The notes: a model not told the origin generated them from the letters alone. Shown: positions 10,344-57,175, numbered from the stretch's first letter. The stretch is 64,000 nucleotides of DNA from an uncultured bacterium (GCA_964345035.1 CAYFPO010000007.1:2444-66443), one strand, 5' to 3'. A program made the numbers and translations.

Positions 10344-11147
10344 ATGAATCTTGGTACCTTAGTAGGATTATTATTAGGTTTCGCATTAATAGGTACAGGT
10401 ATGTACCTGTCTGCAAGTGGTGCAGGAAAAACAATGCTTGACTATTATGATACAGTTAGTATGCTTATTGTTTTGGGTGGTTCCTTGTCCGCAACTGCAA
10501 TTGCTTTTAAAATCGGAGATGTACTGTCTATTTTTAAATCCCTGGGCAGATTATTCAAGGATGATAATTTCACATTGGGGGACGTAGTGGATGATTGTGT
10601 AGAACTGGCTGAATCAAACAGAAAAGGACAGTTGGAAGGGCAATTAGATGCAACACCATCCTCCATGCCATTCAGGATGCATCCAATTAAAACTGGCATA
10701 CAAATGATCGTTGATGGTAGTAAACCTGAGGATATTGAGGAAGTATTAGAAAATACAGAGAAATACCGTTCACAAAGGGAAGCTATCAAAGCCAATGTAT
10801 TGAAAAAAATGGGTGAATATTCACCGGCATTTGGGATGGTAGGAACATTAATCGGCCTAGTTATGATGTTGTATGGTATGGGTTCAGGTGAAAGTGAAGA
10901 TATGGCAGCCAAATTAGGTCTTTCAATGGCGGTAGCATTAATAACCACATTATATGGAGCCATATTCGCTAATTTTTTCTTCTTACCATTTTCTGATAAA
11001 CTCAAAGGTAAAAATGAACAAAAAAGTGTTGAAAGTGCTTTATGTAGTGCAGGAGTCATGCTCATAGCAAAAAAGGTGCATCCAATATTAGTTAGAGAAA
11101 AACTCAATGCATATATTCCACGGGTTCAACGAAAAACTGAAGAATAA
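10344..11147 (+). CDS. motA: MotA/PomA-family stator channel protein
   Basis: 267 aa with a 2 TM + ~100-aa cytoplasmic loop + 2 TM layout. It has the conserved TM3 motif YSPAFGMVGTLIGLV and a TM4 proline (FFFLPF). Confidence 0.85.
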   Translation: MNLGTLVGLLLGFALIGTGMYLSASGAGKTMLDYYDTVSMLIVLGGSLSATAIAFKIGDVLSIFKSLGRLFKDDNFTLGDVVDDCVELAESNRKGQLEGQLDATPSSMPFRMHPIKTGIQMIVDGSKPEDIEEVLENTEKYRSQREAIKANVLKKMGEYSPAFGMVGTLIGLVMMLYGMGSGESEDMAAKLGLSMAVALITTLYGAIFANFFFLPFSDKLKGKNEQKSVESALCSAGVMLIAKKVHPILVREKLNAYIPRVQRKTEE

Positions 11148-11899
11148 TGGCAAAACCATTTAGAGAAGAAGATTGTCCTGTATGTCCTGATGAAGGATTG
11201 CCGGGATGGATGGGTACATTTGCAGATATGATGACATTATTGTTTGCATTTTTTGTACTTTTGTTTTCCATGTCAACCTTAGACCCTGTTAAAATGGCTC
11301 AAATGGCAGAAACAATGACTGATTTTACAACAGGTGCTAAGGAGGATACACCAGATAAAGAACCTATGAAAAGTTCTTCTCAAATAAAATCAGATCTAAA
11401 CGAAATTAAGGATAATGTTGATGAAAGTTTAAAAGGTAAAATTACCGTTTCAAGTGATGAACAAGGCGTTGCTGTTGAATTGGATGGTGATATTTGTTTT
11501 GATATGGGAACTGTGATTTTACATGAAAAATTGATGGAAATATTAGATACAGTAGCTCCAAAATTGATGACACATCCTACAGATATGCGACCAATTCAAA
11601 TACAGGGGCATTCGGATAATATCAAGGTTCCTTTTCCATTAAGTGAAAAATTTCCTACGAACTGGGAATTATCATCTGCAAGGGCTGCTGTGGTAGTAAA
11701 TTATTTAATTAAAAATCATGGCATTAATCCGACCAGGCTAAGGGCAATTGGATTTGCAGATAGATGGCCATACGGGATTGATTTTATGGATATGAGAAAA
11801 CACGGGTTTGTTGATGATGCAAAGATTGCAGAATATAATTCTACTCCTGAAAAAATGGCGAAAAATAGAAGAATAAAAATCGTATTCCAACCCAGTTAA
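11147..11899 (+). CDS. motB: MotB/PomB-family stator protein with OmpA-like peptidoglycan-binding domain
   Basis: 250 aa. The ATG overlaps the motA stop (TAATG). N-terminus ..CPVCPDEGLPGWMGTFADMMTLLFAFFVLLF carries the conserved TM aspartate. The C-terminal OmpA-like region is NWELSSARAAVVVNYL...RLRAIGFADRWP. Confidence 0.85.
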   Translation: MAKPFREEDCPVCPDEGLPGWMGTFADMMTLLFAFFVLLFSMSTLDPVKMAQMAETMTDFTTGAKEDTPDKEPMKSSSQIKSDLNEIKDNVDESLKGKITVSSDEQGVAVELDGDICFDMGTVILHEKLMEILDTVAPKLMTHPTDMRPIQIQGHSDNIKVPFPLSEKFPTNWELSSARAAVVVNYLIKNHGINPTRLRAIGFADRWPYGIDFMDMRKHGFVDDAKIAEYNSTPEKMAKNRRIKIVFQPS

Positions 11900-12176: not shown

Positions 12177-13784
12177 TCAGCATTTCAATAAATTAATGCT
12201 CACCGTTGTCAATTCACCCCCGGGAAATAGTTTTTGAAATTTTAGATCTTCGATTAAACCTGCTTTTCGGGCACAGTCCAGCATAATATCTAACTCAACA
12301 ATATATTGATCTGTATATCCATGGGTTGCATCATAGGCGGTTGCTAAAGTTCTACCTAAATTATTTGCTGTGAGTTCCGGTGGGATTGTATGCAGTTCCA
12401 GAACGAGGAGTCCGTGTTTCTCTATATATGGTTTCCAATTATTAAAATGATCAATCAGATTCTGCTCTAATTCATAATTTGGAATCCATTTACCTCTAAA
12501 CGCAAATGCTCCGGTTGAGTTGCTTTTATAAGAAGAATCCATTTGGTTAGGGGAGGTATAAATCCGGTTATGATCCAGAAATGACCGTACATTCAACAAG
12601 TTGCTCAAATCTACATTAAATTCGGATTTAATTTTTTCAGCAAATGACTTTGGGTTACCAATATTCCCATGAAGAACGTGGTGGTGAATTCCTGCATCTG
12701 ATAATGTCTTTTCTGTCGCAACTCTTGCTGCAGGGTTAAAGTCACCACCAATAATTACAAGCGGGTAATCATGTATATAAGCACCTCTGCGGGTTGAGGA
12801 TGTCACTACCTCATAAATATGTTTCAGGAATGATCCATCACCACAGCCCATATCTGCAATTCCTATGGGTTGTTGTTCGATGGGTTGATTGAATGTTTCA
12901 ATAATTATTTTATCAATGGTATCAAAATAGGTTTTATGAGCACCACCGCTTCCCCATACATTCATGGGCCGGTTCACGTGGGATTCATCTCCGGATTCTG
13001 TTCTGTGCCATAAAACGGTAGGATTTCCATACAATAATTCCGATAATTGTAGGAAAGTGGATAAATAAGACACTGTAACACCATAGGCAGTTGCAAGGGA
13101 AATAGCATATTCTCCCTCCGGAGTGACAACATAATTATCGTCATTTTTAAGAATCCAGGATTCCAATGAGAAAATTCTACTGATGCTCTGGTAATTATTG
13201 CAGACAAGGTAATCCAGTAATGTATTGGGCTCTTTCAATAATCCTGCTCTGCCGAGTGCTACTATTACAGGTCCGATGAGCCCACCATTCAGTTGATTGA
13301 GGATTTGAAATTCTACAGATGATATATCATCAATATCAGATTGTGTAAATCCCCAGAGATTCTCCGCAGACTGCAATAATTCATAAAAAATACCATCGAT
13401 ATCATGGAGATTATTTTCAGTAATCAATTTCTCCAGATACACTGCTTCAGAATACCATGGGATCAGTTGTGAATATTTATGTGCATATTGAATCATATTT
13501 CGTCCTAAGTCCGTAAGAGAATATTCAATATTTTTACCATCTTTCAACACAGTTCTCATCAACCAACCCTGTGAAGCTAATAATCTCAACGCTATATTAA
13601 TATATCCAATGTTCGCATTAAATTTTCTAATAATGGAACATAAATCCCAGTGTCCTTCTTTTTCCATATAATCAATGATTCCTTTTTTGAACAATGCATC
13701 AATTGTTGGCGCTATGGTAATTCCATCCAAATGGCGAAAAATGGTATTACGTATTTTTAATTTAGATTGTCTCGAAATATTCAA
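12177..13784 (-). CDS. class I SAM-dependent methyltransferase with a ~300-aa N-terminal extension (two winged-helix/lid-like segments)
   Basis: 535 aa. The Rossmann-fold motif I is IGIADMGCGDGSFL, followed by an acidic beta-2 end (VIIGGDFNPAA) and a later GLLVLELH. The N-terminal half holds two similar segments (FRHLDGITIAPTIDALFKKGIIDY.. and LNQLNGGLIGPVIVALGRAGLLKE..). Substrate is unknown. Confidence 0.65.
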   Translation of the reverse strand: MNISRQSKLKIRNTIFRHLDGITIAPTIDALFKKGIIDYMEKEGHWDLCSIIRKFNANIGYINIALRLLASQGWLMRTVLKDGKNIEYSLTDLGRNMIQYAHKYSQLIPWYSEAVYLEKLITENNLHDIDGIFYELLQSAENLWGFTQSDIDDISSVEFQILNQLNGGLIGPVIVALGRAGLLKEPNTLLDYLVCNNYQSISRIFSLESWILKNDDNYVVTPEGEYAISLATAYGVTVSYLSTFLQLSELLYGNPTVLWHRTESGDESHVNRPMNVWGSGGAHKTYFDTIDKIIIETFNQPIEQQPIGIADMGCGDGSFLKHIYEVVTSSTRRGAYIHDYPLVIIGGDFNPAARVATEKTLSDAGIHHHVLHGNIGNPKSFAEKIKSEFNVDLSNLLNVRSFLDHNRIYTSPNQMDSSYKSNSTGAFAFRGKWIPNYELEQNLIDHFNNWKPYIEKHGLLVLELHTIPPELTANNLGRTLATAYDATHGYTDQYIVELDIMLDCARKAGLIEDLKFQKLFPGGELTTVSINLLKC

Positions 13785-13933
13785 AATTTTATGTAATATA
13801 CACTACAAAATAGGGTATCTTTTTCTTTGCTAAGAAAAATGAACCCTATAATTTAAAAAGTTATATCGAGGAAATGAATAATCCTTTATTCAATTTTCAT
13901 ACAAAATTCTCTTTTATAAAATCAGGAGGCAAC

Positions 13934-16792
13934 ATGAAGTCCATAGATGTCAAAAGTGTAATAATCGGAATGCTATCAATGGTAATCATTTTTATGACTG
14001 TTGGTATGCGCCAGACTGTAACCAATATGGGTGATATAGGTGTCACCTCTATTACCGTGATCGGCGAGGATGATGAAAAAGCATTGTTCATCGGCAGCGG
14101 AGGTGGTGGAAACGGTTATTTAAAAACGTATAATAAATATGGTAAAACCAGCGCATATCTGGGAACCGGAGGAGGCGGAACAGGTGGTTTCAAAATCTAT
14201 AACAGAGATGGTAAAACTCTGGCCTTCATTAGTGGATCTAAAGAAGGGAGAGGATTTCTGGAAATTTCAAATTCTAATGGAGATGCTGCAGCAAAATTAC
14301 TCGCAGATGATAATGATAGTGGACAATTGAGATTAAATGATGCGGATGGCAATATGGCATTTGATTCGGATAATGCAATGACTGGAGATGCATCTTTAGG
14401 TGATGTAACTGTTAATTCACTTTCTGTAATTGATGCAGAAGATGCACTGAAAGTGTATCTGGGTGTGGATGATGAGAAAAATGGGTATCTCCGGGTCACT
14501 CATGAAATTGAAGATTATTATTATCCATCAGATGAACCGGAAATTGAATTAGATACTTTTGGTGACATTTCAGTAAAATCCATTACAATTACTGATAGTG
14601 ATAACAATACCAGGGCATTCTTAGGATTGGATGATTCCCAAAATGGTCAATTAAAACTCTCAGATACTGAAACAGAAACTGTATATCCTCTGACTGAAGC
14701 TGAGCCGGAATTAGATTTCGGGGATATTCGTGTATCGTCCCTTACTGTAGTAAACGAAAATCAAAGTGCAATAGGATATTTTGGGCCATCTGATGAGGGA
14801 AAAGGCAATATCCGCACTTTGGATATGGAAGGAAGTGTACTGTTTTCATCAGATGAAACATCCAAAGTTGAAGGAAATCTTGGAAATATCCGTGTTAATT
14901 CCATAACTGTCCAGGATGGTGCAGAAAATGAGGTAATATACCTTGGTACTGATGAAGCTTTAAATGGACTCATCAGTGTTGCAAATGCAGATGGAGATGT
15001 TACATTTACAACTTCAGATCCTGCTAAAGAGAGTAAAGAGAAAAATCTGGGGGACATCACAGTAAATTCTATTACTGTAATGAATGAATATTTCACACCT
15101 ACTACATTTATCGGAAATACACCTGAGGGAAGTGGCCGTTTGGAAGTAAATGATTTTACGGGAAATTCAATTTTTAATTCGGATCAGGCAGTACAGACGG
15201 GTGAAGAATTTGGAGAGATCCAGGTGAGATCACTTGAGATAGTTAATCAAAATCAAGAAACCATGATGACACTTGGCACCGCACAAGGACAATTCGGTGT
15301 AATGAAAGCCAGGGATTCCGCCGGAAATGTGATCTTTTCATCTGATGAGATACCCAAGGGTGGGGATGGTCAAATTACCGGTGACGATATTGTTGTGAAT
15401 TCCATTACACTAAAAAATGAAAATGATGAGATAACCGGATTCCTTGGAAATTCCGAAGATGGAAACAGTGAGTTAAGGATATACGGTACTGATGAATCTG
15501 AAACAGTATTATTAGGGACAAACTTCAGTGGACACGGATTTATGAGGACGTATAATACAGATGGTACTCAGACATTGTATATGGGAACTTCTGAAAGTGG
15601 CGACGGATTATTAAAAACGTATAGTTCAGAGGGAAAAAAGACTACTTATTTGGGTTCTAACAAAAACAATACAGGCATGTTGAACACCTATAATGATTTT
15701 GGAGATATGGCGGCAATGATTGGTACATCATCTAATAACAGCGGCACTACAAAAATGTTTGATTCAAACGGTGGATTGATTTTTTCAGTTAATGATACTT
15801 CTGGCAATACTACAACTAAAAATCTTACAGCAAAAAGTGTAACCGTAGTAGATGGTTCGGGTGCAGGGAAAGGATTTATTGGTGTTAATAATTTCGGTAA
15901 AGGATTTATCAGTACCAATAATGTATATACTGACACAATTAGGTCTGAATATGGCAATACTACTAAAATTCAAGCCAATCAGGTCGCAGTTAAAAATGAC
16001 TACGGTGAGGAAAGAATTTTCTTGGGAGTAAATCAAGAAGATATAGGTTTTATAAAAACCAATTTATCCAATACAGATATTGACTTTCTTTCAACTGAAT
16101 CGGCTAAAAATACAGAAGTCCTGGGAGATATTCAGGTTTCCTCTTTATCCATCACTACCCCGGAGGGAGATACCCGTGTATTTTTGGGGAGAAATAAGGA
16201 AGGAAATGGAATCATTACCACTCATAATGAAATAGGCGCCCAGACTAACTTTCTTGGCTCAGATATTGACGGTAGTGGTAAACTACAGATATCAAATACA
16301 ACTGGACAAAAAATTGCGACAATCGGAACAGGAGTGAATGATGGAGGTTCATTGACTACATACAATCGAATGAATGAGATAACTGCATCATTGGGTGTCA
16401 GTGAAGATGGTGTTACCGGTCACCTCACTGGAATTGATCACGTGGAAACATTTAATCAAATTGGTTTTAAAACCGCTTACTTTGGGAACGGAAGTAGTGA
16501 TGAAGGACTGTTACGTGTATTTAATGCAGAAGGTGTACAATCCATGTTGATGGGGACCTTATCCACAGGTGGTGGAATTATCACATCAAACACTAAAGGA
16601 CTGATTACATCCTTTCTTGGAACCAGCGGTAGTGATGGCGGTCATTTGATCACTTATAATTCTTATGGTAAGAAAACATCCTTTATGGGTACAAATAAGC
16701 ATAATGACGGGATGGTGATCCTACGGGATAAAGGTGGCAATATCGGATGGGGAAAAGATGGGAGAATTCCGGCATACTACGCAAAACAATAA
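13934..16792 (+). CDS. membrane-anchored repeat protein (single N-terminal TM, then ~36 degenerate 22-29-aa Gly/Asn/Thr-rich repeats)
   Basis: ORF 13874..16792. I prefer the ATG at 13934, preceded by AGGAGG. TM helix SVIIGMLSMVIIFMTVG. Repeats are of the form G.G.L.(T/V)YN..GK.T.YLGT.... and of the form (L/F)GDI.V.SITV.D......(Y/F)LG.....G.L.... No enzymatic motif is recognised. Confidence 0.75.
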   Translation: MKSIDVKSVIIGMLSMVIIFMTVGMRQTVTNMGDIGVTSITVIGEDDEKALFIGSGGGGNGYLKTYNKYGKTSAYLGTGGGGTGGFKIYNRDGKTLAFISGSKEGRGFLEISNSNGDAAAKLLADDNDSGQLRLNDADGNMAFDSDNAMTGDASLGDVTVNSLSVIDAEDALKVYLGVDDEKNGYLRVTHEIEDYYYPSDEPEIELDTFGDISVKSITITDSDNNTRAFLGLDDSQNGQLKLSDTETETVYPLTEAEPELDFGDIRVSSLTVVNENQSAIGYFGPSDEGKGNIRTLDMEGSVLFSSDETSKVEGNLGNIRVNSITVQDGAENEVIYLGTDEALNGLISVANADGDVTFTTSDPAKESKEKNLGDITVNSITVMNEYFTPTTFIGNTPEGSGRLEVNDFTGNSIFNSDQAVQTGEEFGEIQVRSLEIVNQNQETMMTLGTAQGQFGVMKARDSAGNVIFSSDEIPKGGDGQITGDDIVVNSITLKNENDEITGFLGNSEDGNSELRIYGTDESETVLLGTNFSGHGFMRTYNTDGTQTLYMGTSESGDGLLKTYSSEGKKTTYLGSNKNNTGMLNTYNDFGDMAAMIGTSSNNSGTTKMFDSNGGLIFSVNDTSGNTTTKNLTAKSVTVVDGSGAGKGFIGVNNFGKGFISTNNVYTDTIRSEYGNTTKIQANQVAVKNDYGEERIFLGVNQEDIGFIKTNLSNTDIDFLSTESAKNTEVLGDIQVSSLSITTPEGDTRVFLGRNKEGNGIITTHNEIGAQTNFLGSDIDGSGKLQISNTTGQKIATIGTGVNDGGSLTTYNRMNEITASLGVSEDGVTGHLTGIDHVETFNQIGFKTAYFGNGSSDEGLLRVFNAEGVQSMLMGTLSTGGGIITSNTKGLITSFLGTSGSDGGHLITYNSYGKKTSFMGTNKHNDGMVILRDKGGNIGWGKDGRIPAYYAKQ

Positions 16793-18069: not shown

Positions 18070-20133
18070 ATGGGTAATATTAAAATTATATTATTAGTAT
18101 TTTGCGCTTCAATAACGCACATCTATGGACAATCGTATAATATGGAGTTGTTAGGGCATCTGCCTTTTGACCAGGAATGTTCAGATATCACCGGTTTTTA
18201 TCAGGATGGTAGAGAGTTTGCAGTCGTTGGTTTATATAACGGTTCTGTATTTGTGGATGTTACAGATCCAGGTGAACCATTTGAAGTTGGCAGGATAACA
18301 GGAAGTAACAGCATTTGGAGGGATTTAAAATACTGGAATCGCCATGTTTATATCGGAACAGAAGCAAATGATGGAGTCCAGGTGGTAAGTGTTGATGATC
18401 CAGACACTCCGATACTGGTAAATTTAATTAATGATTTTACCAGCAGTCATAATATCCACGTAGCAGATGGATTTTTATATGTCGTGGGTGCAGGTGATCA
18501 TCATATCTGGATTTATGATCTATCAAATCCAGAGAATCCGACACTAGCCGGCACCTGGGATGAGGAATATATCCATGATCTCCATGTGTATAACAATAAA
18601 GCGTATTGTGCGGCGATTTATTCCAGTACGGTCTATATATTGGATGTATCTGACAAAAATTCTATAAATACACTTACCAGTTGGTCTTATGAAGGGAAAG
18701 CCCACGACTGTGCTGTTACCAGCGATGAGACCATTCTGATCACCGGAGATGAAATGACAGGAGGAAATATAAAAATTTGGGATATATCTGATTATGACAA
18801 TATTCAATTATTGAGTGAATATATGGTTGACCCTGCACATTCAGTACATAATGTATATAATATAGATAATCTGGTTTATTGTTCATATTATGCTGACGGG
18901 ACCAGAGTTTTGGATATCTCTGATCCTGAATATCCGATTGAAGTTGGGTATTATGATACAAGTGAATTGGAATCATTATATGTGGGGAATTGGGGGGTTT
19001 ATCCATTTTTACCCAGTGGAAATATTATTTCAAGTGATATAGAAACCGGATTATATATTACCCGATTAACAGGGCTGTCAATTATCCACGACCCGATAGA
19101 AGATGTATCTCACGAAGCAGCCAACTATCCGATAGAATCAATAATCAGATCATTTTCCGGCGAAGTTGCAGCTGCTTTTGTTTTTTACCGGTTATTAGGT
19201 ATCGGTAATGAATCCTGGACCTCTATTAGTTTATCTGATGATGGAGATGGAAACTATTCAGGTGAAATTCCACAACAGATATTAGGTACGGTTATTCAGT
19301 ATTATATTTATGCCACTAATGAATTTTATGAAGAGTCTACATTTCCACCTGAAGGAATTATAGATCCTCTGCTATTTACAGTTGGTCAACTACCCGAAAT
19401 ATATACAGAAAATTTTGAAGTTGACTCCGGTTGGTCAACTGATCCATCCGATGATGCATCCTCAGGTATCTGGGTTAGAGATGAGCCCATTCCAACTTAT
19501 TTGGGTGACATTAATGTCCAGCCGGGCACTGACCACACACCTGACGGCACAAATTGTTTTATCACAGGAAATACAGATAATCCATATGAACCCGGTTTAG
19601 ATGACGTAGATTCAGGAACAACCACATTGATAAGTCCGGTTTTTGATTGTTCATCCTATGATCATGCTATGTTAACCTATTGGCGGTGGTACACAAATAA
19701 TACGGGTGATAATCCCAATGAAGATTACTGGCAGGTTGAGATTTCCAATGATTTCGGGTCAACTTGGAGCACTCTTGAAATGACAAATCAATCAAATGCA
19801 GATTGGACATTTCACAGGGTGATTTTGTCTGACTATGTAGAAATTACAGAAGGAATACAGCTAAGATTTAAAGCATCAGATTACTTCAACCCATCTTTGG
19901 TTGAAGCAGCAGTAGATGATATTGCAATAGCTGTGTTCGGTCAGCCTGTCATACTTGGTGATGTAAATTTTGACATCTCAGTTGATATTTTGGATGTTGT
20001 ATCCATTGTTCAATTCATTCATGGTAATATTGAATTTAATGCTTTTGAAATACAGGCAGCAGATTTTGATATGGATGGAATTGTAAATGTCCTGGATATT
20101 GTTGCTATTATTGATTTTATTTTGGATAATTGA
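18070..20133 (+). CDS. secreted LVIVD-repeat (choice-of-anchor-B-like) beta-propeller protein with a MAM/anchor-J-like domain and a C-terminal dockerin module
   Basis: 687 aa with a signal-like N-terminus. It has repeated LVIVD-type strands (VFVDVTDP, VQVVSVDDP, IWIYDLSNP, VYILDVSD, IKIWDISD, TRVLDISDP). The C-terminus is GDVNFDISVDILDVVSIV....AADFDMDGIVNVLDIVAIIDFIL, two dockerin-like Ca-loop/helix repeats. Confidence 0.75.
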   Translation: MGNIKIILLVFCASITHIYGQSYNMELLGHLPFDQECSDITGFYQDGREFAVVGLYNGSVFVDVTDPGEPFEVGRITGSNSIWRDLKYWNRHVYIGTEANDGVQVVSVDDPDTPILVNLINDFTSSHNIHVADGFLYVVGAGDHHIWIYDLSNPENPTLAGTWDEEYIHDLHVYNNKAYCAAIYSSTVYILDVSDKNSINTLTSWSYEGKAHDCAVTSDETILITGDEMTGGNIKIWDISDYDNIQLLSEYMVDPAHSVHNVYNIDNLVYCSYYADGTRVLDISDPEYPIEVGYYDTSELESLYVGNWGVYPFLPSGNIISSDIETGLYITRLTGLSIIHDPIEDVSHEAANYPIESIIRSFSGEVAAAFVFYRLLGIGNESWTSISLSDDGDGNYSGEIPQQILGTVIQYYIYATNEFYEESTFPPEGIIDPLLFTVGQLPEIYTENFEVDSGWSTDPSDDASSGIWVRDEPIPTYLGDINVQPGTDHTPDGTNCFITGNTDNPYEPGLDDVDSGTTTLISPVFDCSSYDHAMLTYWRWYTNNTGDNPNEDYWQVEISNDFGSTWSTLEMTNQSNADWTFHRVILSDYVEITEGIQLRFKASDYFNPSLVEAAVDDIAIAVFGQPVILGDVNFDISVDILDVVSIVQFIHGNIEFNAFEIQAADFDMDGIVNVLDIVAIIDFILDN

Positions 20134-23644: not shown

Positions 23645-26128
23645 TTGCTAAAAGCTGCTTTATTCAGTTTTATTTCCGTATTGTATTCCGGCGGAATTTT
23701 TGGTGAATGGAACCATTATACATCATTACTCACACCAACCGATGTGGTCATTCAGGATGATGATAGAATTTATGCAGCCACCATTGGCGGGTTACTTGAA
23801 CTTAATACTGAAACAAATAAGTTTAATTTTATAACAAGTAATTACCTCGAATACCTTGATTTATCGTCAATGATTAACGATTCCTTCCAAAACCTCATTC
23901 TTGGCGGTAATCCACCTGATAGAACAATCCAGATTTTTCACAATGAATTTGGATTACGAAATACCATTAATAATCTAGGTGAAGTTGATAAAATCCTGAA
24001 ATTTGAGTTGAATGAACCATATCTATTCGCAGCATATAAATCTGATGCATCCTATGGTATATTGAAGTTCTTGTATAATGAATTTGGAGTTCCGGAATAT
24101 CAGGACTTCTACAATAATTTTCCTGAGCAATTTACCAATATATCCGATATTGATTTGATGAATGATACCGTGTTTGTTACAACCCCGGAAGGAATCTTTT
24201 ACGGCAATTATATTACGGAAAACCTGAAATCAAGTGACAATTGGAAAAGTATGTCAATTCCCATAGAATTACCTATGGTATTTTATCCGGATTCATCAGG
24301 ATATTTCATCGGGGGATATAATGAGTTATGGAGGAAAATAAACGAGAATTGGGAAGTATTGGAGTTGGAAATTGATACTGAATTATCTACGGATTTTCAA
24401 GCACTAGATATTGCTGGTATTGGAAATAATTCTGTGGGGATTCTGACCAAAAAACAATACTTCCAATTAGAAAACTCTGAAACAGTGACTACTGAGTTTG
24501 AATTTTCTATACCGGTTAACACTGATTTTACTGCATTTGATTATTTAGAAAATACCGCAGCATTTGGTATGAAGCATCATGGCATATTGATGTTGGATGT
24601 GGATTCCAACAGTTATGAAATTTACGTACCGGATACTCCAATTCATAATCAGTATGATGCTATTGAAGTTTTGGGTAATGGAAGTCTGGTCGGAGTATGT
24701 AATAGAAACGAGGTAGATGAATATAATATTTCTGATGAAATCGGTGGTGTTACAATCTTTGAAAATGAGGGATTCATCAATTATATTTCCTCTATGTCTA
24801 ATTCTTATTGGGAATACCCTGTTAATGTATCTGAATTCAATTATTTTACAGGGATTGAGATTGATTATCGCCCTGGTGCCAATGATACTTGGAGTATTAT
24901 TGAATCCGAATCAGGTAATTTATTGGTTTCCAATAGTGGAAACCGCCCTAATTTGGATCAGGGAAAGGGAGGTGTTATCGAATTAAATTTAAATACAAAT
25001 GAAGCCATAATTTATGATACAACCAATAATGTGCTCGACGGTTTGGATGGAATTTACCGGAATATCTGGACTACCAGATATTTAACCATTAACCAATTGA
25101 ATAAAGATCCGGAAGGTAATATTTGGGTTATGAATCCCTACTCAGAAGTGTATAATCTGCCTGCTGCCATCCAATTATCAGACGGTCAGACCTGGAGTCA
25201 TATTTCAGCACAAGATGAATTATCCTATATGCCCCAGGAAATTGCATTTGACCAGACTGAGCTTGCATGGTTTGGTTTTCAATATGTGTTAAATTGGGCA
25301 GGTACTGCAGTTTATTCAGATGGAGGACTAAAAGTGCTTGATACAAAGGGTACCTATGGTAATCCAACAGATGACACGTGGTTGAATTTAACAAATCCAG
25401 AAATTTTACCAAATGGAAAAAATACTTCTATCTGGTCATTAACATCAGATAATCTGAATCGAATCTGGGTACTGACATCTTTTGGAGTCCAGGGATATAT
25501 ATTTTCCAGATATGGAAATTCCATTTCTTTAATGCCATTGTATACGGATATTGAAGGTGAACTATTTAACTATCTCTCATTTTTAAATCTGAATCAAGGA
25601 GATCGTATTCGCGTGGACAGTCAAAATAATATCTGGATTTCTACGCGGAATTCAGGAGTTTGGTTCATCCCGGAAGACACTCCTCCGTGGGAAGATCTCA
25701 CACAATATTCAACAGAAACATCTCCAATATTATCGAATATAGTATATGATATGGCATTTGATCATACAGACGGAACTGTGTATTTCGCTACTGAAAAGGG
25801 AATTTCATACTTGACGCTTCCCATCAATTCAGTAAAAAAAAACGCAGATAATCAGATTAGAATAAGCCCTAATCCATTACGGTTACCGGATGATAGTTAT
25901 GCAGAAATTTATGATATCTACCCCGGTTCCACAGTCAAAATAATGCAATTATCCGGTGAAGTCGTCCGAAGTTTAAACAGTAATGTGATCAGTCAAAATG
26001 ACACAGCAGTACAATGGGATGGACGTAATTCATCCGGCGAGTATGTGGGGTCCGGTGTGTATCTGGTTGCCGTATCTCATCCGGAAGGTGGAAATGCAGT
26101 GTCCAAGATCGCAGTGATCAGACAATAA
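23645..26128 (+). CDS. secreted beta-propeller-like repeat protein with T9SS-type C-terminal sorting domain
   Basis: 827 aa, TTG start, signal-like N-terminus. Recurrent W/Y-rich propeller-like segments. The C-terminal ~90 aa (ISPNPLRL...VQWDGRNSSGEYVGSGVYLVAV....SKIAVIR) is a FlgD-Ig/T9SS-tail-like domain. Confidence 0.6.
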   Translation: MLKAALFSFISVLYSGGIFGEWNHYTSLLTPTDVVIQDDDRIYAATIGGLLELNTETNKFNFITSNYLEYLDLSSMINDSFQNLILGGNPPDRTIQIFHNEFGLRNTINNLGEVDKILKFELNEPYLFAAYKSDASYGILKFLYNEFGVPEYQDFYNNFPEQFTNISDIDLMNDTVFVTTPEGIFYGNYITENLKSSDNWKSMSIPIELPMVFYPDSSGYFIGGYNELWRKINENWEVLELEIDTELSTDFQALDIAGIGNNSVGILTKKQYFQLENSETVTTEFEFSIPVNTDFTAFDYLENTAAFGMKHHGILMLDVDSNSYEIYVPDTPIHNQYDAIEVLGNGSLVGVCNRNEVDEYNISDEIGGVTIFENEGFINYISSMSNSYWEYPVNVSEFNYFTGIEIDYRPGANDTWSIIESESGNLLVSNSGNRPNLDQGKGGVIELNLNTNEAIIYDTTNNVLDGLDGIYRNIWTTRYLTINQLNKDPEGNIWVMNPYSEVYNLPAAIQLSDGQTWSHISAQDELSYMPQEIAFDQTELAWFGFQYVLNWAGTAVYSDGGLKVLDTKGTYGNPTDDTWLNLTNPEILPNGKNTSIWSLTSDNLNRIWVLTSFGVQGYIFSRYGNSISLMPLYTDIEGELFNYLSFLNLNQGDRIRVDSQNNIWISTRNSGVWFIPEDTPPWEDLTQYSTETSPILSNIVYDMAFDHTDGTVYFATEKGISYLTLPINSVKKNADNQIRISPNPLRLPDDSYAEIYDIYPGSTVKIMQLSGEVVRSLNSNVISQNDTAVQWDGRNSSGEYVGSGVYLVAVSHPEGGNAVSKIAVIRQ

Positions 26129-54026: not shown

Positions 54027-55571
54027 TTGAAAAAATATAATCATTTCTATTTCAAAAACCGCTCTTATCCGGAGCGGTTTTTACTTTTAGTACTATTCAT
54101 CATCTCTTCATTACTAATCGGAAATGAATCTCAATTTATATCTATTCAAACAGATCAGACAGGACAATCACAGTTTTTGATTGATATAAATTCACCGGGG
54201 TATTTCCCCGATATTAAAATTGGATCTATTCGATATGATGGTACCTTAAATCTACCTATAGGAATCTACAAAATTACTGAATTTCCTCACTCATCAAATT
54301 CAGATACAAACGAAGTAAGAAATTTTTTCAACTGGAAACAAGGCGATTTTGAGTATAGAGAAATCAGCATTGGAGCAAAGTCTGCAAGTATTGATAGCGG
54401 CAGGATTCGCTTTTCCGGATTTGGCAGGTCGTTTCCCGGGAATGACGGCAGATTGGGACCACCCGGCTCTGATTATAAAGGAAATGTACTACAGAATTAT
54501 TTATTAGAATATGAAAAGGAATATAGAAATGGTGAATTTACTTCCGGATTCGCCTACCATAAGGAAAATGTGGGTTTACCGACAGTTGGTTCTTCAAACG
54601 GATTTAGAAACACTGAGTCTTTCCATCTAAGTACCGATTACAATGTTAAATTGAAAAAAATGAACATCGTCTCCTCATCAGCTTTCCAAATTGGAACTTT
54701 TGACAGGGAGGGGCATACTGCAGAATATTTGGTTAAATGGCTGGATGTTTCAGGAGATTATGAACTGAATGATAATAATTGGTTCATCATTCAATATTCT
54801 GGTAAAAAACTATCGGTTGAATCAAAGGAATTACTCCAGGATATTTCAAGTATTGCAATTAATCATACAAAACTAAATTATTTTTATCATAAACCAACTT
54901 TTGGAATTTCAGTAAGCATTGATGCTCTTGGGTCAACAGTTTTTCCGGGAATTGAGATTAGTAAAAACCTGTTTGATTTTCAATTTTCCATAAAACGCAG
55001 TATTGCCAATGAAATGAATACTACGGATTCTTTAAAATTCACCAATGTGTCTGTAATAAATAATAATGTTTCAGTAAAATATAATTCAGATCGCTTCTTG
55101 CATTTTAATACAAAAATTACCGGGATGTATTTAGAATGGGATAAATATCAATTCCCCGGAATTTCAGGTCAATTCCAAATTTCTCAACCATGGATATCTT
55201 TATCGGGAGAAGGTGTCTATTATAATTCTCAGGATATATTGGTAAGTCGATATGGACATTTATCTGCTAATCTGCATCCGGTTTTATGGTGGACTGACAG
55301 ATACAGATTTTCTGCAGGGATAGAAGGCATTTATTATCATTTGCCAGGTACATTTACTCTTGATCTAAATTCCATTACCGGTGTTACAAATGAAATAGCA
55401 AACCCTGCAAATGTTGGATTTATTAATTGGAAATTTGGATTGAAGGTAAAAAATTTCAGTCTGACATATTATACAAGTTTCCTGTCAAATCAGGAAATAA
55501 ATATATCACCAGCCATTATCCCGATAGAGCCTTTCTCATATTTGGCAGTTGATTGGCGATTTATAAATTAA
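54027..55571 (+). CDS. hypothetical protein, probable outer-membrane beta-barrel
   Basis: 514 aa, TTG start directly after the previous stop, hydrophobic N-terminal segment. The C-terminal two thirds show alternating aromatic/polar strand patterns (..YLAVDWRFIN at the end). No family is recognised. Confidence 0.4.
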   Translation: MKKYNHFYFKNRSYPERFLLLVLFIISSLLIGNESQFISIQTDQTGQSQFLIDINSPGYFPDIKIGSIRYDGTLNLPIGIYKITEFPHSSNSDTNEVRNFFNWKQGDFEYREISIGAKSASIDSGRIRFSGFGRSFPGNDGRLGPPGSDYKGNVLQNYLLEYEKEYRNGEFTSGFAYHKENVGLPTVGSSNGFRNTESFHLSTDYNVKLKKMNIVSSSAFQIGTFDREGHTAEYLVKWLDVSGDYELNDNNWFIIQYSGKKLSVESKELLQDISSIAINHTKLNYFYHKPTFGISVSIDALGSTVFPGIEISKNLFDFQFSIKRSIANEMNTTDSLKFTNVSVINNNVSVKYNSDRFLHFNTKITGMYLEWDKYQFPGISGQFQISQPWISLSGEGVYYNSQDILVSRYGHLSANLHPVLWWTDRYRFSAGIEGIYYHLPGTFTLDLNSITGVTNEIANPANVGFINWKFGLKVKNFSLTYYTSFLSNQEINISPAIIPIEPFSYLAVDWRFIN

Positions 55572-55573
55572 AT

Positions 55574-56860
55574 TTATTTCATTAACAGCATTTTACCGGT
55601 TTTAGTGCCACTTGAAGTAGATAATCTGTAAAAATAGGGTCCTGATACTTCATTTTTAAAACTAACTTTCACCGAATTCATCCCAGGTGAAAATATAGAT
55701 TGTTTCTCTGCAAAAATTTGTGTACCAAGTGCATTATATACAGATAATGTCACATTATCTGGTGTATCCAGAAAAAATGAAATTGTAGTTTCCGGATTGA
55801 ATGGATTTGGATAATTTCCAAATAGTTTAAATTCATCCGGAGAGATTATTTGTTCGGTAATGGATAATGGAGAATTCCAAAATGCAAAGGAACCGGGTAT
55901 GCCTCCAACTGAATGCCTTACCACTTCATTGCTGTTAGAATCCAGAACCACCACTTCATCCGGTGCAATAAAATCATCTGAAAGTCCCAGATAAACATAT
56001 TCACCGTTTGCAGCCATTGAATATACATACTCAAAATCTTCAGTACCTATTCTGGTTTCTGGAATAATTTCCAGATTTTCATCCAGCTTAGCAATACCAC
56101 CATTCCAGGTTCTATACACCGAACCCTGATAGGTAGTTATATCACCGCCACATAAAGCCAAACTATTCACACCATAATTCTGGATTGTAATTTCTCCTGT
56201 GGATAGATTAATGGATGATGTGCCGGTAAATTGTGTCCAGGACTCGTCATAAAATATGCGTGCGATATAAAGTACGCCATCGTGCAGCACCATTTGGCCG
56301 GGTCCCGTACCTACATCATAAGTAGTCACAACCGTGTTGGATTCCGGGTCAATTGCAGCCACCAGGTTCCCATCACTCCAATCGGAATGTAGTACGATGG
56401 ATACATAAATCAGATTACCGTCTGTTACCATCATCTCAGGTAATCCGTCAACCGGAATGGAAGTGATGAAATTATAAGTTGTCATATCAATTATAGAAAT
56501 TGATTGTGTATCCCATTCGGTTAAATATCCGTAATTGCCTAAAACAAGCAATTCTCTTGGCACTGAATTATTAGTGTCTATTGTTTGGGAATAGGTAATG
56601 CTTCCGTCATCTTCCTCAATATCATACACACGAATCTGACTTGAGCCATTCAGGATAACGTAGAGTGTATTGTCAACAACGGTCATAGATTGCCCGACAT
56701 TCCCGATGGGATTGTCTATTGCTTCTGTGATTTCAAAATTTCCATTTTCAACCCACAGAGAAGCATCATTTGAGTAGAAGTCCCCTTCACACAGAATAAA
56801 TGCAGATTCAGCTGAAATTGCAATGGAAATCATAAAGATTAATTGGATCAGTATTTTCAT
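55574..56860 (-). CDS. secreted YncE/YVTN-like beta-propeller protein with T9SS-type C-terminal sorting domain, controlled by a cobalamin riboswitch
   Basis: The track ORF extends to 56887, inside the riboswitch terminator. The ATG at 56860 has AAAGGAG upstream and gives the signal peptide MKILIQLIFMISIAISAES. Propeller-like strands include FILCEGDFYSNDASLW, LYVILNGSSQIRVYD and GVLYIARIF. The tail is GNYPNPFNPETTISFFL...LSVYNALG...GPYFYRL.... Confidence 0.75.
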   Translation of the reverse strand: MKILIQLIFMISIAISAESAFILCEGDFYSNDASLWVENGNFEITEAIDNPIGNVGQSMTVVDNTLYVILNGSSQIRVYDIEEDDGSITYSQTIDTNNSVPRELLVLGNYGYLTEWDTQSISIIDMTTYNFITSIPVDGLPEMMVTDGNLIYVSIVLHSDWSDGNLVAAIDPESNTVVTTYDVGTGPGQMVLHDGVLYIARIFYDESWTQFTGTSSINLSTGEITIQNYGVNSLALCGGDITTYQGSVYRTWNGGIAKLDENLEIIPETRIGTEDFEYVYSMAANGEYVYLGLSDDFIAPDEVVVLDSNSNEVVRHSVGGIPGSFAFWNSPLSITEQIISPDEFKLFGNYPNPFNPETTISFFLDTPDNVTLSVYNALGTQIFAEKQSIFSPGMNSVKVSFKNEVSGPYFYRLSTSSGTKTGKMLLMK

Positions 56861-56873
56861 TTTTACTCCTTTA

Positions 56874-57045
56874 AACAAAAAACCCACAATCGTGAATCAA
56901 GTGGGTAATTTAAATTTCCTGACCTTAATCCACGAAGGTAATATAGAAAGTGAAAGTATCTGGCTTGTCCCATGCAGGGGCTTCACAGTTGCGGGTCAGC
57001 TTCGGATTTCAACCGAATTCCTTCCAGTTAGTATGATTGAATTTA
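56874..57045 (-). promoter_or_regulatory. cobalamin (B12) riboswitch with candidate terminator
   Basis: The minus strand reads ..TAACTGGAAGGAATTCGGTTGAAATCCGAAGCTGACCCGCAACTGTGAAGCCCCTGCATGGGACAAGCCAGATACTTTC.. This matches the conserved core (GGGAA..GGTGaaAatCC....C.G..CCCGC.ACTGT) and a B12-box-like AAGCCAGATAC. It is followed by ACCCAC-N13-GTGGGTTTTTTG and AAAGGAGTAAAAATG. Boundaries are approximate. Confidence 0.75.
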
Positions 57046-57175
57046 CAGGCTAAGTTACTACCTCAGAAACAATTATTTTTTCAATTTATTATGAAATTAC
57101 CCAATGATTTATACCTGTTTATCCAAGTAACTTATAAGCTGATTTTAAACTAATATTTTACTAAAGGAGGCTAAA

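What the first reader, a model, noticed from the sequence alone, without database searches (positions are those of the whole stretch)
13934..16792. ~950-aa membrane-anchored protein built from about three dozen degenerate beta-hairpin-like repeats of an uncharacterised type
After a single TM helix, the protein is almost entirely repeats. I hand-parsed roughly 36 units of 22-29 aa, of two interleaved kinds:
- Short units: G-x-G-x-L-x-T-Y-N-x-x-G-K-x-T-x-Y-L-G-T (for example GYLKTYNKYGKTSAYLGTGGGGT, GLLKTYSSEGKKTTYLGSNKNNT, GHLITYNSYGKKTSFMGTNKHND).
- Longer units opening with (L/F)GDIxVxSITVxD...(Y/F)LG...G.L (for example LGDITVNSITVMNEYFTPTTFIGNTPEGSGRLEVNDFTGNSIF).

The repeats are diverged at the DNA level, so they are old and not an assembly artefact. 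The motif recalls YD/RHS-type or 'xLxDxxGKxRAxL' hairpin repeats found in uncharacterised envelope proteins. It contains no toxin, enzyme or sorting domain that I can recognise. It is a candidate for a periplasm-spanning or surface fibre of unknown function.
Basis: seen in the sequence. Interest (0 to 1): 0.6.

Follow-up and report, generated by a model that had tools for sequence, protein, structure and literature searches.

The report
Giant membrane-anchored beta-hairpin repeat protein
This is a real, conserved 952-residue protein of an uncultured marine bacterium (Marinimicrobia/SAR406), made of about 36 MORN-like 23-residue beta-hairpins behind one membrane anchor; it is the giant form of a large unnamed family of small marine envelope proteins, and its function is still unknown.

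Summary
The gene at 13934-16792 (+) encodes 952 aa: one N-terminal hydrophobic helix, then only beta-hairpin repeats. There are 71 predicted strands. Left-out repeat units score 30-54 bits against shuffle maxima below 15. The DNA carries no repeats.

The organisation is modular, not interleaved. Eleven arrays each open with an LGDIxVxSITV strand, carry 1-8 hairpins of 23 aa (GxLxTYNxxGKxTxYLGT), and one conserved cap with the only Trp closes the protein.

An exhaustive profile search found 545 cluster representatives. Most are 110-300 aa marine "hypothetical proteins" with the same anchor, opening strand and cap. Their core lengths step in 23-aa quanta.

A pLDDT-92 model of the last array is a regular meander. 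Its best structural matches are engineered OspA single-layer sheets and MORN repeat proteins. RHS/YD and MORN Pfam models do not match, and Bflower matches only weakly.

Orthologs occur only in Marinimicrobia, in fixed synteny, under purifying selection (dN/dS about 0.05). The ends are conserved and whole modules are gained or lost in the middle.

Best reading: an acidic, elongated envelope tether or scaffold exported by Sec. It is a new variant of a known kind. Function is inferred, not shown.

The parts
13924..13929 (+). Ribosome-binding site AGGAGG, 4 nt before the ATG at 13934
   Evidence: Read directly from the sequence. It supports 13934 over the public gene call at 13874.
13934..16792 (+). 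Coding sequence of the 952-aa hairpin-repeat protein, stop codon included
   Evidence: ORF list. Orthologs at 28-80% identity. dN/dS 0.05 against L022.
13934..14023 (+). N-terminal region, residues 1-30: conserved MKxIDxKS motif plus an 18-residue hydrophobic helix (8-25). It is a Sec signal-anchor, or less likely a long cleaved signal peptide.
   Evidence: Kyte-Doolittle maximum 2.11, and no other hydrophobic window in the protein. Helix 6-20 in the model. M1, K2, D5, S8, I11 and G12 are invariant among the giant homologs. Most small family members share the same N-terminus.
14024..14395 (+). Module 1, residues 31-154: opening strand MGDIGVTSITV plus 4 hairpins. It is the best-conserved module.
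   Evidence: 50% identity to the far orthologs. It matches the N-terminal half of the small family.
14396..15382 (+). Modules 2-7, residues 155-483: six units of 53-58 aa, each an opening hairpin (L/F)GDIxVxSITVxD..fLG plus one hairpin ending F-S-S-D and an acidic linker.
   Evidence: Leave-one-out scores 33-54 bits. An opening-strand HMM built only from small proteins finds every start in this block. Whole-module gains and losses among orthologs.
15383..15820 (+). Module 8, residues 484-629: opening hairpin plus 5 short hairpins (512, 535, 558, 581, 604).
   Evidence: This is the highest-pLDDT region of the full-length model.
15821..16120 (+). Modules 9 and 10, residues 630-729: two degenerate two-hairpin modules.
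   Evidence: Leave-one-out scores 32 and 37 bits. This is the least conserved part among orthologs.
16121..16789 (+). Module 11, residues 730-952: opening hairpin, about 8 hairpins and the terminal cap. It is equivalent to the whole ectodomain of a small family member.
   Evidence: AlphaFold2 with a 113-sequence alignment gives mean pLDDT 92 and pTM 0.70, with 19 strands of 4-8 residues (mostly 6-7) joined by mostly 5-residue loops.
16703..16762 (+). C-terminal cap, residues 924-943: NDGMVILRDKGGNIGWGKDG. This is the family signature DG.a.L.DRYGD.GW and holds the only Trp (W939).
   Evidence: A cap HMM built only from small proteins scores 23.8 bits here and nowhere else; the shuffle maximum is 0.3. 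G926 and W939 are invariant across the 113 aligned sequences.

Best explanation
What it is. The gene encodes an envelope protein of a Marinimicrobia (SAR406) bacterium that leaves the cytoplasm through Sec. An N-terminal signal-anchor most likely holds it in the cytoplasmic membrane, with a 7-residue cytoplasmic tail. The remaining 920 or so residues lie outside the membrane, which in a diderm means the periplasm.

How it is built. That part consists of about 36 beta-hairpins of 23 aa: two strands of 6-7 residues and two loops of 5. Their geometry is that of MORN repeats and of the OspA single-layer sheet. The hairpins are grouped into 11 arrays, each opened by a conserved LGDIxVxSITV strand. 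A single conserved cap carrying the only tryptophan closes the protein.

How it most likely works. The arrays are open-ended antiparallel meanders. Joined end to end they would make a thin, very acidic ribbon, or a string of short ribbons, up to about 30 nm long. The conserved parts are the anchor with module 1 and the C-terminal array with its cap. The middle gains and loses whole modules. I therefore read it as a passive structural element: a tether, spacer or scaffold. Its two ends would make the specific contacts (membrane at one end, an unknown partner at the cap) and its middle would set the length. It is not an enzyme or a toxin.

Origin. It arose by tandem amplification of the ectodomain of a widespread family of small (110-300 aa) marine proteins that have the same anchor, opening strand, hairpins and cap.

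Shown versus inferred. Shown: gene reality, repeat architecture, family membership, secondary structure, purifying selection, and the conserved-ends, variable-middle pattern. Inferred: retention of the anchor, periplasmic location, extended shape, and the tether or scaffold role.
For: Gene reality:
- Orthologs in Marinimicrobia MAGs sit in identical synteny.
- dN/dS is 0.05 against the 80%-identical ortholog, comparable to hisC at 0.075.

Repeats:
- Leave-one-out HMM tests against shuffles.
- An opening-strand HMM trained only on small proteins finds 10 of the 11 module starts, scoring 3.9-25 bits against a shuffle maximum of 2.1. A cap HMM finds only the true C-terminus.

Family:
- The exhaustive profile search gave 545 hits at E<=1e-3. 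Most are 110-300 aa and match both the N-terminal and the C-terminal parts of the query.
- 437 further hits came from the word-indexed search. All are unnamed or 'hypothetical protein' and come from metagenome sources (ENA, JGI, Tara).

Open-ended arrays:
- Family core lengths fall on two ladders with 23-aa steps: 76/99/122/145/168 and 108/131/154/177/200.

Fold:
- The model of residues 726-952 has pLDDT 92 and a regular meander.
- Foldseek PDB: engineered OspA single-layer sheets rank first (E 2e-9, TM 0.44).
- Foldseek BFVD: MORN repeat proteins rank first (E 2e-8, TM up to 0.46).
- MORN geometry is 23 aa with 6-residue strands, 5- and 6-residue loops and an elongated twisted sheet; 9 repeats span about 80 A (PMC7725318).

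Topology and composition:
- A single hydrophobic segment of 18 residues, no Cys, no lipobox, pI 4.4.
- The n-region motif is conserved.

Ends versus middle:
- Identity to the far orthologs is 0.48-0.50 for the anchor, M1 and the last 95 residues. Most of the middle is at 0.12-0.40 (M6 is an exception at 0.49), with whole-module gaps.

No catalytic or toxin domain.
Against: - No experiment or expression data of any kind is available.
- The full-length model is poor (pLDDT 47), so how the 11 arrays pack against each other is unknown.
- Many small relatives have a plausible signal-peptidase site (V/I-S/G-A before K/T). The anchor may therefore be cleaved.
- The weak but recurrent Bflower hits (7 of 113 relatives, best E 2.6e-7) point to a family that forms closed barrels.
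- Small family members sit in mobile or accessory DNA. That hints at a role in conflict rather than architecture.
- Synteny with motAB and hisC is whole-block synteny and says nothing about function.
Confidence: 0.5

Rival explanations
1. Same fold, but the N-terminal segment is a cleaved signal peptide. The mature protein would then be a soluble periplasmic or shed acidic beta-ribbon, for example a binding or coating protein, and not a membrane tether.
For: Many relatives carry V/I-S/G-A followed by K/T/Q at the end of the hydrophobic stretch, which fits signal peptidase I. The window protein has T-V-G before M-R.
Against: The hydrophobic stretch is 17-19 residues, which is long for a signal peptide. 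The n-region motif MKxIDxKS, including an acidic residue, is conserved between giant and small members; that is unusual for a segment that is discarded. No signal-peptide predictor was available.
Confidence: 0.2
2. The hairpins close into a series of beta-flower (Tubby-clan) barrels. Each would enclose a hydrophobic channel, so the protein would bind lipids or other hydrophobic ligands instead of acting as a ribbon.
For: Bflower (PF21784) is the only Pfam family hit repeatedly: E 0.15 for the window protein, 0.014 for P0020, and 7 of 113 relatives with a best E of 2.6e-7. The hairpin tips carry the [DNEQ]xxG motif named for beta-flowers (PMC10584680; 42 occurrences). Module 1 has exactly 10 strands, as a five-fold flower would.
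Against: Family core lengths vary continuously in 23-aa steps, from about 2 to more than 8 hairpins. That does not fit barrels of fixed 4-, 5- or 6-fold symmetry. The confident model of 19 strands matches open sheets best (OspA, MORN). In beta-flowers one loop is about 9 residues and the other 4; here both are about 5.
Confidence: 0.1
3. A conflict-related surface protein. The family would be cargo of mobile elements that masks or alters the envelope (superinfection exclusion or phage-receptor shielding), and the giant gene would be a domesticated chromosomal copy.
For: Small members lie next to a primase-helicase, a TerS-like and an HNH-like gene (L013). Others lie next to an integrase with tandem paralogs (L019), next to ParA and an HTH_17 domain (excisionase-type, from general knowledge) (L018), and next to RelB-like antitoxins (L015). 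The giant gene is the fastest-diverging gene of its syntenic block: 28% identity against 42-77% for its neighbours.
Against: The giant gene sits in a housekeeping block in every ortholog-bearing contig and is under purifying selection like hisC. The family was not found in IMG/VR viral contigs, and the window protein and one small member gave no PHROGs hit. PADLOC was not searched.
Confidence: 0.1
4. An RHS/YD-type shell or polymorphic toxin, as the first reader suggested by analogy.
For: Rhs and teneurin shells appear among the Foldseek hits (E about 1e-6 to 1e-4). One of 113 relatives hits RHS_repeat at E 0.0043.
Against: The window protein gives no RHS_repeat or YD_repeat match even at E<=10. 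TM-scores to Rhs shells are 0.16-0.22. There is no DPxGL cleavage motif and no C-terminal toxin or N-terminal plug domain. The period is a strict 23 aa.
Confidence: 0.01
5. A partner of the neighbouring MotA/MotB-type stator: a periplasmic element driven or positioned by a proton or sodium channel complex in a lineage where no flagellar genes are seen nearby.
For: A motA/motB-like pair lies upstream of the gene in every ortholog contig that extends that far (L001-L004). The window holds no flagellar genes among the ORFs scanned.
Against: The whole block pheST-zapA-folD-motAB-X-hisC-rib is syntenic, so the adjacency carries no specific signal. A methyltransferase on the opposite strand usually separates the genes. 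X abuts or overlaps hisC, not motB. Small family members never sit next to motAB.
Confidence: 0.04

Closest known systems
MORN repeat arrays (Pfam PF02493; structures of TbMORN1, TgMORN1 and PfMORN1, PMC7725318)
   Same: The period is 23 aa. Each hairpin has two strands of about 6 residues, a 5-residue tip loop and a 5-6-residue connecting loop. A GxG motif precedes strand 1, there is a Gly in the tip, and conserved aromatic or Leu positions lie on both strands. Copy number is variable and open-ended. MORN repeat proteins are the top Foldseek hits in BFVD.
   Different: No MORN or MORN_2 Pfam hit for the window protein or for 113 relatives. There is no YxGxW signature. The consensus here is GxLxTYNxxGKxTxYLGT. 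This protein is exported and membrane-anchored, whereas characterised MORN proteins are cytoplasmic. It also has dedicated opening-strand and cap motifs, and 11 arrays are concatenated in one chain.
OspA single-layer beta-sheet and its engineered extensions (e.g. PDB 2fkj, 3eex)
   Same: These are the best PDB structural matches (E 2e-9, TM 0.44). The family profile even finds the engineered OspA hairpin STFELFNEKGELSFKLITRADKS by sequence (E 0.0027), which shares the h-x-h-F-N-x-x-G tip pattern. Both are envelope proteins of diderm bacteria.
   Different: OspA is a lipoprotein in which globular domains flank a short sheet. Here there is no Cys and no lipobox, there are no globular domains, and the arrays are natural and far longer. 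The rmsd of 12-16 A shows that the overall shape differs.
Beta-flower proteins (Pfam Bflower PF21784, clan CL0395; Durairaj et al. 2023, PMC10584680)
   Same: This is the only Pfam family with recurrent, weak sequence hits. Both have hairpin 'petals' with a [DNEQ]xxG tip, are bacterial and are often envelope-associated.
   Different: The window protein scores 12.9 bits against a 25-bit cut-off. Beta-flowers are closed barrels of 8-12 short strands with fixed symmetry and unequal loops. This family varies freely in hairpin number and has equal loops.
RHS/YD repeats (PF05593, TIGR01643) and teneurin shells
   Same: Both are degenerate beta-hairpin repeats of about 20 aa with an aromatic-(D/N)-x-x-G tip, in large bacterial proteins.
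   Different: No model match, TM at most 0.22, no shell-closing plug, no DPxGL autoproteolysis motif and no toxin domain.
Long hairpin-array proteins from metagenomes (P0024, P0056, P0095, P0048)
   Same: They carry dozens of similar 23-aa hairpins (GGGYLxLxNxxGxxvaxL) and are detected by the family profile at E 1e-13 to 1e-23.
   Different: They have a signal peptide, a distinct conserved N-terminal domain and a distinct C-terminal domain of about 170 aa. They lack the LGDIxVxSITV opening strand and the DRYGDxGW cap. They too are uncharacterised.

Membership tests
RHS/YD repeat proteins | Significant match to RHS_repeat (PF05593) or YD_repeat (TIGR01643) models | tested here: not met
   No hit at E<=10 for the window protein. 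One of 113 relatives hits at E 0.0043.
RHS/YD repeat proteins | Closed shell with DPxGL-type autoproteolysis motif and C-terminal toxin | tested here: not met
   No DPxG[LIVW] motif, no extra domain, and Foldseek TM 0.16-0.22 to Rhs shells.
MORN repeat (PF02493 / PF07661) | 23-residue beta-hairpin unit with 6-residue strands and 5/6-residue loops, forming an elongated sheet | tested here: met
   The period is 23 aa. Most model strands are 6-7 residues and most loops 5. The geometry definition comes from PMC7725318. MORN proteins are the top BFVD matches. The elongated shape itself is inferred, because the coordinates could not be inspected.
MORN repeat (PF02493 / PF07661) | Sequence match to the Pfam models, or the YxGxW...GxG signature | tested here: not met
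   No MORN or MORN_2 hit. There is no Y.G.W in the protein. Only the GxG and the tip Gly are shared.
Bflower / beta-flower (PF21784, CL0395) | Score at or above the Pfam gathering threshold (25 bits) | tested here: not met
   12.9 bits, E 0.15. Among relatives, 7 of 113 hit with a best E of 2.6e-7, and P0172 carries a precomputed PF21784 hit.
Bflower / beta-flower (PF21784, CL0395) | Closed shallow barrel of 8, 10 or 12 strands with 4-, 5- or 6-fold symmetry | tested here: inconclusive
   The coordinates could not be inspected. Quantised but freely variable hairpin numbers, and best matches to open sheets, argue against closure.
Bflower / beta-flower (PF21784, CL0395) | [DNEQ]xxG motif at the hairpin tip | tested here: met
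   NxxG or DxxG sits at most tips; 42 occurrences in 952 aa.
OspA-type surface lipoprotein | Lipobox Cys and globular end domains flanking the single-layer sheet | tested here: not met
   No Cys at all, no lipobox, and no Pfam lipoprotein hit. The similarity is structural only.
Unnamed marine 'anchor - LGDIxVNSITV - hairpins - DRYGDxGW' family (defined here) | N-terminal MKxIDxKS motif plus hydrophobic helix, opening strand, 23-aa hairpins, and C-terminal cap with invariant Gly and Trp | tested here: met
   Profile of the small proteins against the window ORF: E 1.8e-116. HMMs trained only on small proteins score the opening strand 10 times and the cap once. The reciprocal exhaustive search is.

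The most novel reading that the evidence does not exclude
The family would be a previously unrecognised class of envelope 'measuring tapes'. These would be membrane-anchored, capped single-layer beta-sheet arrays whose length is set in 23-aa (about 0.9 nm) quanta. The 952-aa Marinimicrobia protein would be a periplasm-spanning version of about 30 nm, whose conserved Trp cap docks on the wall or outer membrane and helps set or sense envelope spacing in an abundant uncultured ocean phylum. The short versions would be spread by mobile elements to remodel or shield the envelope.
Probability: 0.12. Interest if true: 0.65.

Novelty: new variant of a known kind. Interest (0 to 1): 0.4.

Why it matters
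The result defines a sizeable protein family that no Pfam or NCBIfam model covers: 545 cluster representatives at 50% identity. It appears centred on Marinimicrobia (SAR406), one of the most abundant uncultured bacterial groups of the dark ocean.

For repeat-protein and protein-design researchers, it offers natural, capped, length-quantised hairpin arrays of the OspA/MORN type. Such arrays have so far been studied mostly in engineered OspA. One chain here concatenates eleven of them.

For envelope biology, it is a candidate structural component of a cell envelope that nobody has been able to study in culture.

The practical outcome is modest. The work corrects the gene start, gives a testable fold and topology, and provides a seed alignment for a new family. 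It gives no function.

Tried and rejected
Searches that found nothing useful:
- Pfam, NCBIfam, PHROGs and PDB sequence searches with the whole protein gave nothing above noise.
- The first genome-contig scan, using window-specific peptides, found no relative. The alignment-based scan found three Marinimicrobia MAG loci.
- The IMG/VR scan for the cap motif found no relative, so I dropped the idea that the family is encoded by known phages.

Structure work with limits:
- Full-length AlphaFold2 with 7 sequences gave only pLDDT 47. I used it for secondary structure only.

Ideas tested and rejected:
- Tandem-repeat or assembly artefact. There is no DNA repeat and selection is purifying.
- RHS/YD membership.
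- A functional link to motAB or the AprA-like methyltransferase from adjacency alone. The whole block is syntenic, and the methyltransferase is missing in L002.
- A C-terminal cap at the end of every internal module. The resemblance seen by eye (LxDxxGxhxF-S-D) was not recovered by the cap HMM.

Other:
- A literature search on Marinimicrobia flagella gave nothing usable.
Full report

The window has an ORF at 13874..16792 on the + strand. AGGAGG sits at 13924-13929, four bases before that ATG, and all homologs start MKS(I/L)D. The public gene call of 972 aa (P0001) is probably 20 codons too long.

The product is 952 aa, 101 kDa and pI 4.4, with 130 acidic against 68 basic residues, no cysteine and a single tryptophan, W939. 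Only residues 1-27 give a Kyte-Doolittle 19-residue mean above 1.6, and AlphaFold2 places a helix at 6-20.

I tested the repeats by leave-one-out. An HMM built from the other units scored each left-out long unit at 30-54 bits, against shuffle maxima of 4.8-14.3 bits. Most 23-aa short units scored 9-32 bits against shuffle maxima of about 10 or less (12.4 at most); five degenerate ones could not be told from shuffles. Tandem Repeats Finder finds nothing in the DNA, and a self-blastn gives one 51-nt match at 76% identity. The repeats are therefore old and are not an assembly artefact.

**2. Anatomy**

The two unit types are not simply interleaved. The conserved strand (L/F)GDIxVxSITVxD opens a module at residues 31, 155, 209, 262, 316, 372, 426, 484, 630, 678 and 730. 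Each opening hairpin is followed by short hairpins of consensus GxLxTYNxxGKxTxYLGT plus a Gly-rich loop. The counts per module are:

| Module | Short hairpins after the opening hairpin |
|---|---|
| 1 | 4 |
| 2-7 | 1 each |
| 8 | 5 |
| 9-10 | 1 each |
| 11 | about 8 |

Modules 2-7 are 53-58 aa each and end in F-S-S-D plus an acidic linker. The protein ends with NDGMVILRDKGGNIGWGKDG. The full-length model predicts 71 strands, about 36 hairpins.

**3. Relatives**

Close homologs are few. Seven were found in 5.8 billion sequences. The two full-length loci recovered from species-representative genomes are Candidatus Neomarinimicrobiota MAGs; a third, partial match lies on an unclassified 'uncultured bacterium' MAG. 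NCBI members of the P0007 cluster are 'hypothetical protein' of Marinimicrobia.

The gene always sits in the block pheS-pheT-zapA-folD-motA-motB-(AprA-like methyltransferase, opposite strand)-X-hisC-LVIVD protein-ribD. The methyltransferase is absent in L002. X abuts hisC with a 20-nt gap in the window and an 8-nt overlap in L004.

Against the 80%-identical ortholog in L022, dN/dS is 0.05. dS is saturated, and pN/pS is 0.16. This is similar to hisC at 0.075, so the reading frame is under purifying selection. The two proteins differ by one clean 53-aa module.

Against the more distant L004 genome, X is the most diverged gene of the block: 28% identity against 42-77% for its neighbours. Divergence is uneven. 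Identity to the far orthologs is:
- 0.48-0.50 for the anchor, module 1 and the last 95 residues;
- 0.12-0.40 for most of the middle (module 6 is an exception at 0.49), with modules 4, half of 8 and part of 9 missing.

**4.

An exhaustive profile search of 1.84 billion representatives gave 545 hits at E<=1e-3. Most are proteins of 110-300 aa that match both the first 125 or so and the last 100 or so profile positions.

Their sequences show one plan:
- MKKIDIKSVIIGVLGT..GA, a hydrophobic helix;
- NLGDITVNSITV, the opening strand;
- a variable number of 23-aa hairpins;
- the cap DG.a.L.DRYGD.GW..SGKK.

A second search found 437 more. None carries any name other than 'hypothetical protein'; they come from metagenome sources (ENA, JGI, Tara) and one is assigned to Marinimicrobia. 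No Pfam or NCBIfam model covers them.

HMMs built only from these small proteins recognise 10 of the 11 module starts in the window protein, at 3.9-25 bits against a shuffle maximum of 2.1. They recognise the cap once, at the true C-terminus, at 23.8 bits against a shuffle maximum of 0.3. In the 113-sequence alignment the cap Gly and Trp are the only invariant columns.

The distance from opening strand to cap Trp in 115 complete small proteins falls on two ladders with 23-aa steps: 76/99/122/145/168 and 108/131/154/177/200. Hairpins are therefore added and removed one at a time.

The window protein is thus a giant derivative, with eleven opening-strand arrays fused in one chain. This architecture is confined to a few clusters. 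Only six representatives reach E<=1e-30, and several of those are fragments. The window holds no other family member.

**5. Fold**

With the 113-sequence alignment, AlphaFold2 models residues 726-952 at mean pLDDT 92 and pTM 0.70. The model has 19 strands of 4-8 residues (mostly 6-7) joined by mostly 5-residue loops in a strict meander.

Structural and sequence comparisons gave the following:
- Foldseek against the PDB puts engineered OspA proteins with extended single-layer sheets first (2fkj, E 2.4e-9, TM 0.44). Rhs and teneurin shells follow at TM of at most 0.24.
- Foldseek against BFVD lists mostly MORN repeat proteins of giant viruses among its best hits (E 2e-8 to 1e-6, TM 0.27-0.46).
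- By sequence, the family profile finds the engineered OspA hairpin at E 0.0027 and NHL propellers at about 0.005.
- Bflower is the only Pfam family hit repeatedly: E 0.15 for the window protein, and 7 of 113 relatives with a best E of 2.6e-7. Tcp10_C (known from general knowledge as the CPAP G-box single-layer sheet) and RHS_repeat are hit by 2 and 1 relatives.

The published structure-based definition of MORN is 23 aa: two 6-residue strands, a 5-residue and a 6-residue loop, and a GxG at the start. It forms an elongated twisted sheet in which 9 repeats span about 80 A (PMC7725318). That is the same geometry, but the MORN signature YxGxW is absent and no MORN model matches.

Beta-flowers share the [DNEQ]xxG tip (PMC10584680). 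They are closed barrels of fixed symmetry with unequal loops, which is hard to reconcile with the length ladders.

**6. Mechanism**

The following is shown:
- a real, constrained gene;
- one N-terminal hydrophobic helix;
- about 36 hairpins in 11 arrays;
- one conserved cap;
- conserved ends and a variable-length middle;
- no catalytic, toxin, lipoprotein or sorting domain.

The rest is inferred. An 18-residue hydrophobic stretch flanked by K7 and R26, together with a conserved n-region, fits a Sec signal-anchor. That would place the ectodomain in the periplasm of this FCB-group diderm. At about 0.9 nm per hairpin (from the MORN structures), 36 collinear hairpins would reach about 30 nm.

Conserved termini around a module-indel-prone middle are what one expects of a tether, spacer or scaffold whose ends make the specific contacts. 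I put 0.5 on this combined statement. The structural description is considerably more secure than the functional one.

**7. Rivals**

- Cleaved signal peptide and a soluble protein (0.2). Many relatives have a plausible peptidase site.
- Closed beta-flower barrels that bind hydrophobic ligands (0.1).
- A conflict-related envelope protein (0.1). Small members lie beside a primase-helicase, a TerS-like and an HNH-like gene (L013). Others lie beside an integrase with tandem paralogs (L019), beside ParA and an excisionase-type HTH_17 domain (L018), and beside RelB-like antitoxins (L015). Against this, the family is absent from IMG/VR.
- A partner of the neighbouring MotAB-type stator (0.04). The adjacency is whole-block synteny.
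- An RHS/YD shell (0.01). This is refuted.

**8. Novelty and verdict**

The kind of object, an array of 23-residue beta-hairpins forming a MORN/OspA-like sheet, is known. Three things are new:
- the sequence family, which has no model in Pfam or NCBIfam;
- its export signal, opening strand and cap;
- the eleven-fold concatenation in Marinimicrobia.

I rate it a new variant of a known kind with interest 0.4. It is a solid lead for repeat-protein structure and for SAR406 envelope biology, but it has no functional handle yet.

Noticed in passing
window 13874-13933: The public gene call (P0001, 972 aa) starts 60 nt upstream of the start supported by the ribosome-binding site and by all homologs. 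It is probably a mis-annotated start.
   Followed up: yes
window 10344-11899 (+): A MotA/MotB-type stator pair (MotB plug plus OmpA domain). The MotA is closest to PomA/MotP models but far below their cut-offs. No flagellar genes were seen among the window ORFs scanned. The pair is conserved upstream of the repeat gene in the orthologous loci that extend that far (L001-L004).
   Followed up: partly
window 12177-13784 (-): A stand-alone 535-aa protein with AprA N-terminal, winged-helix and MT2-like methyltransferase domains, transcribed divergently from the repeat gene. It is missing from the otherwise syntenic locus L002.
   Followed up: partly
window 18070-20133 (+) and 23645-26128 (+): Two large probable surface proteins. 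One is a 'choice-of-anchor B'/LVIVD protein with a dockerin-like tail. The other is an 827-aa protein with a FlgD_ig-type C-terminal domain.
   Followed up: no
window 56934-57083 (-): A cobalamin riboswitch (39.8 bits, above the gathering score) upstream of the 437-aa ORF at 55574-56887 (-).
   Followed up: no
window 54027-55571 (+): A 514-aa ORF with no Pfam match at E<=1e-5.
   Followed up: no
L013 1281-6836; also L009-L012 and L014: A conserved cassette of a TerS-like HTH protein (173 aa), an HNH-like endonuclease (132 aa) and a small hairpin-family member. In L013 it lies downstream of an AAA_25 primase-helicase and next to a protein whose C-terminus looks like a T9SS sorting tail (by eye, not tested). 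It looks like a phage-satellite or island-like element.
   Followed up: partly
L019 451-5575; L018; L015: Other small family members lie beside a tyrosine integrase, a 764-aa Big_7 protein and a tandem paralog (L019). Others lie beside ParA and HTH_17 (L018), or beside RelB-like antitoxins, DUF5677 and pEK499_p136 (L015). These are accessory or mobile contexts.
   Followed up: partly
proteins P0024, P0056, P0095, P0048: Very long (700-1800 aa) metagenomic proteins with dozens of similar 23-aa hairpins. The hairpins lie between a conserved N-terminal domain and a conserved C-terminal domain of about 170 aa. Neither domain is in Pfam. They may be fibre-like surface proteins.
   Followed up: partly
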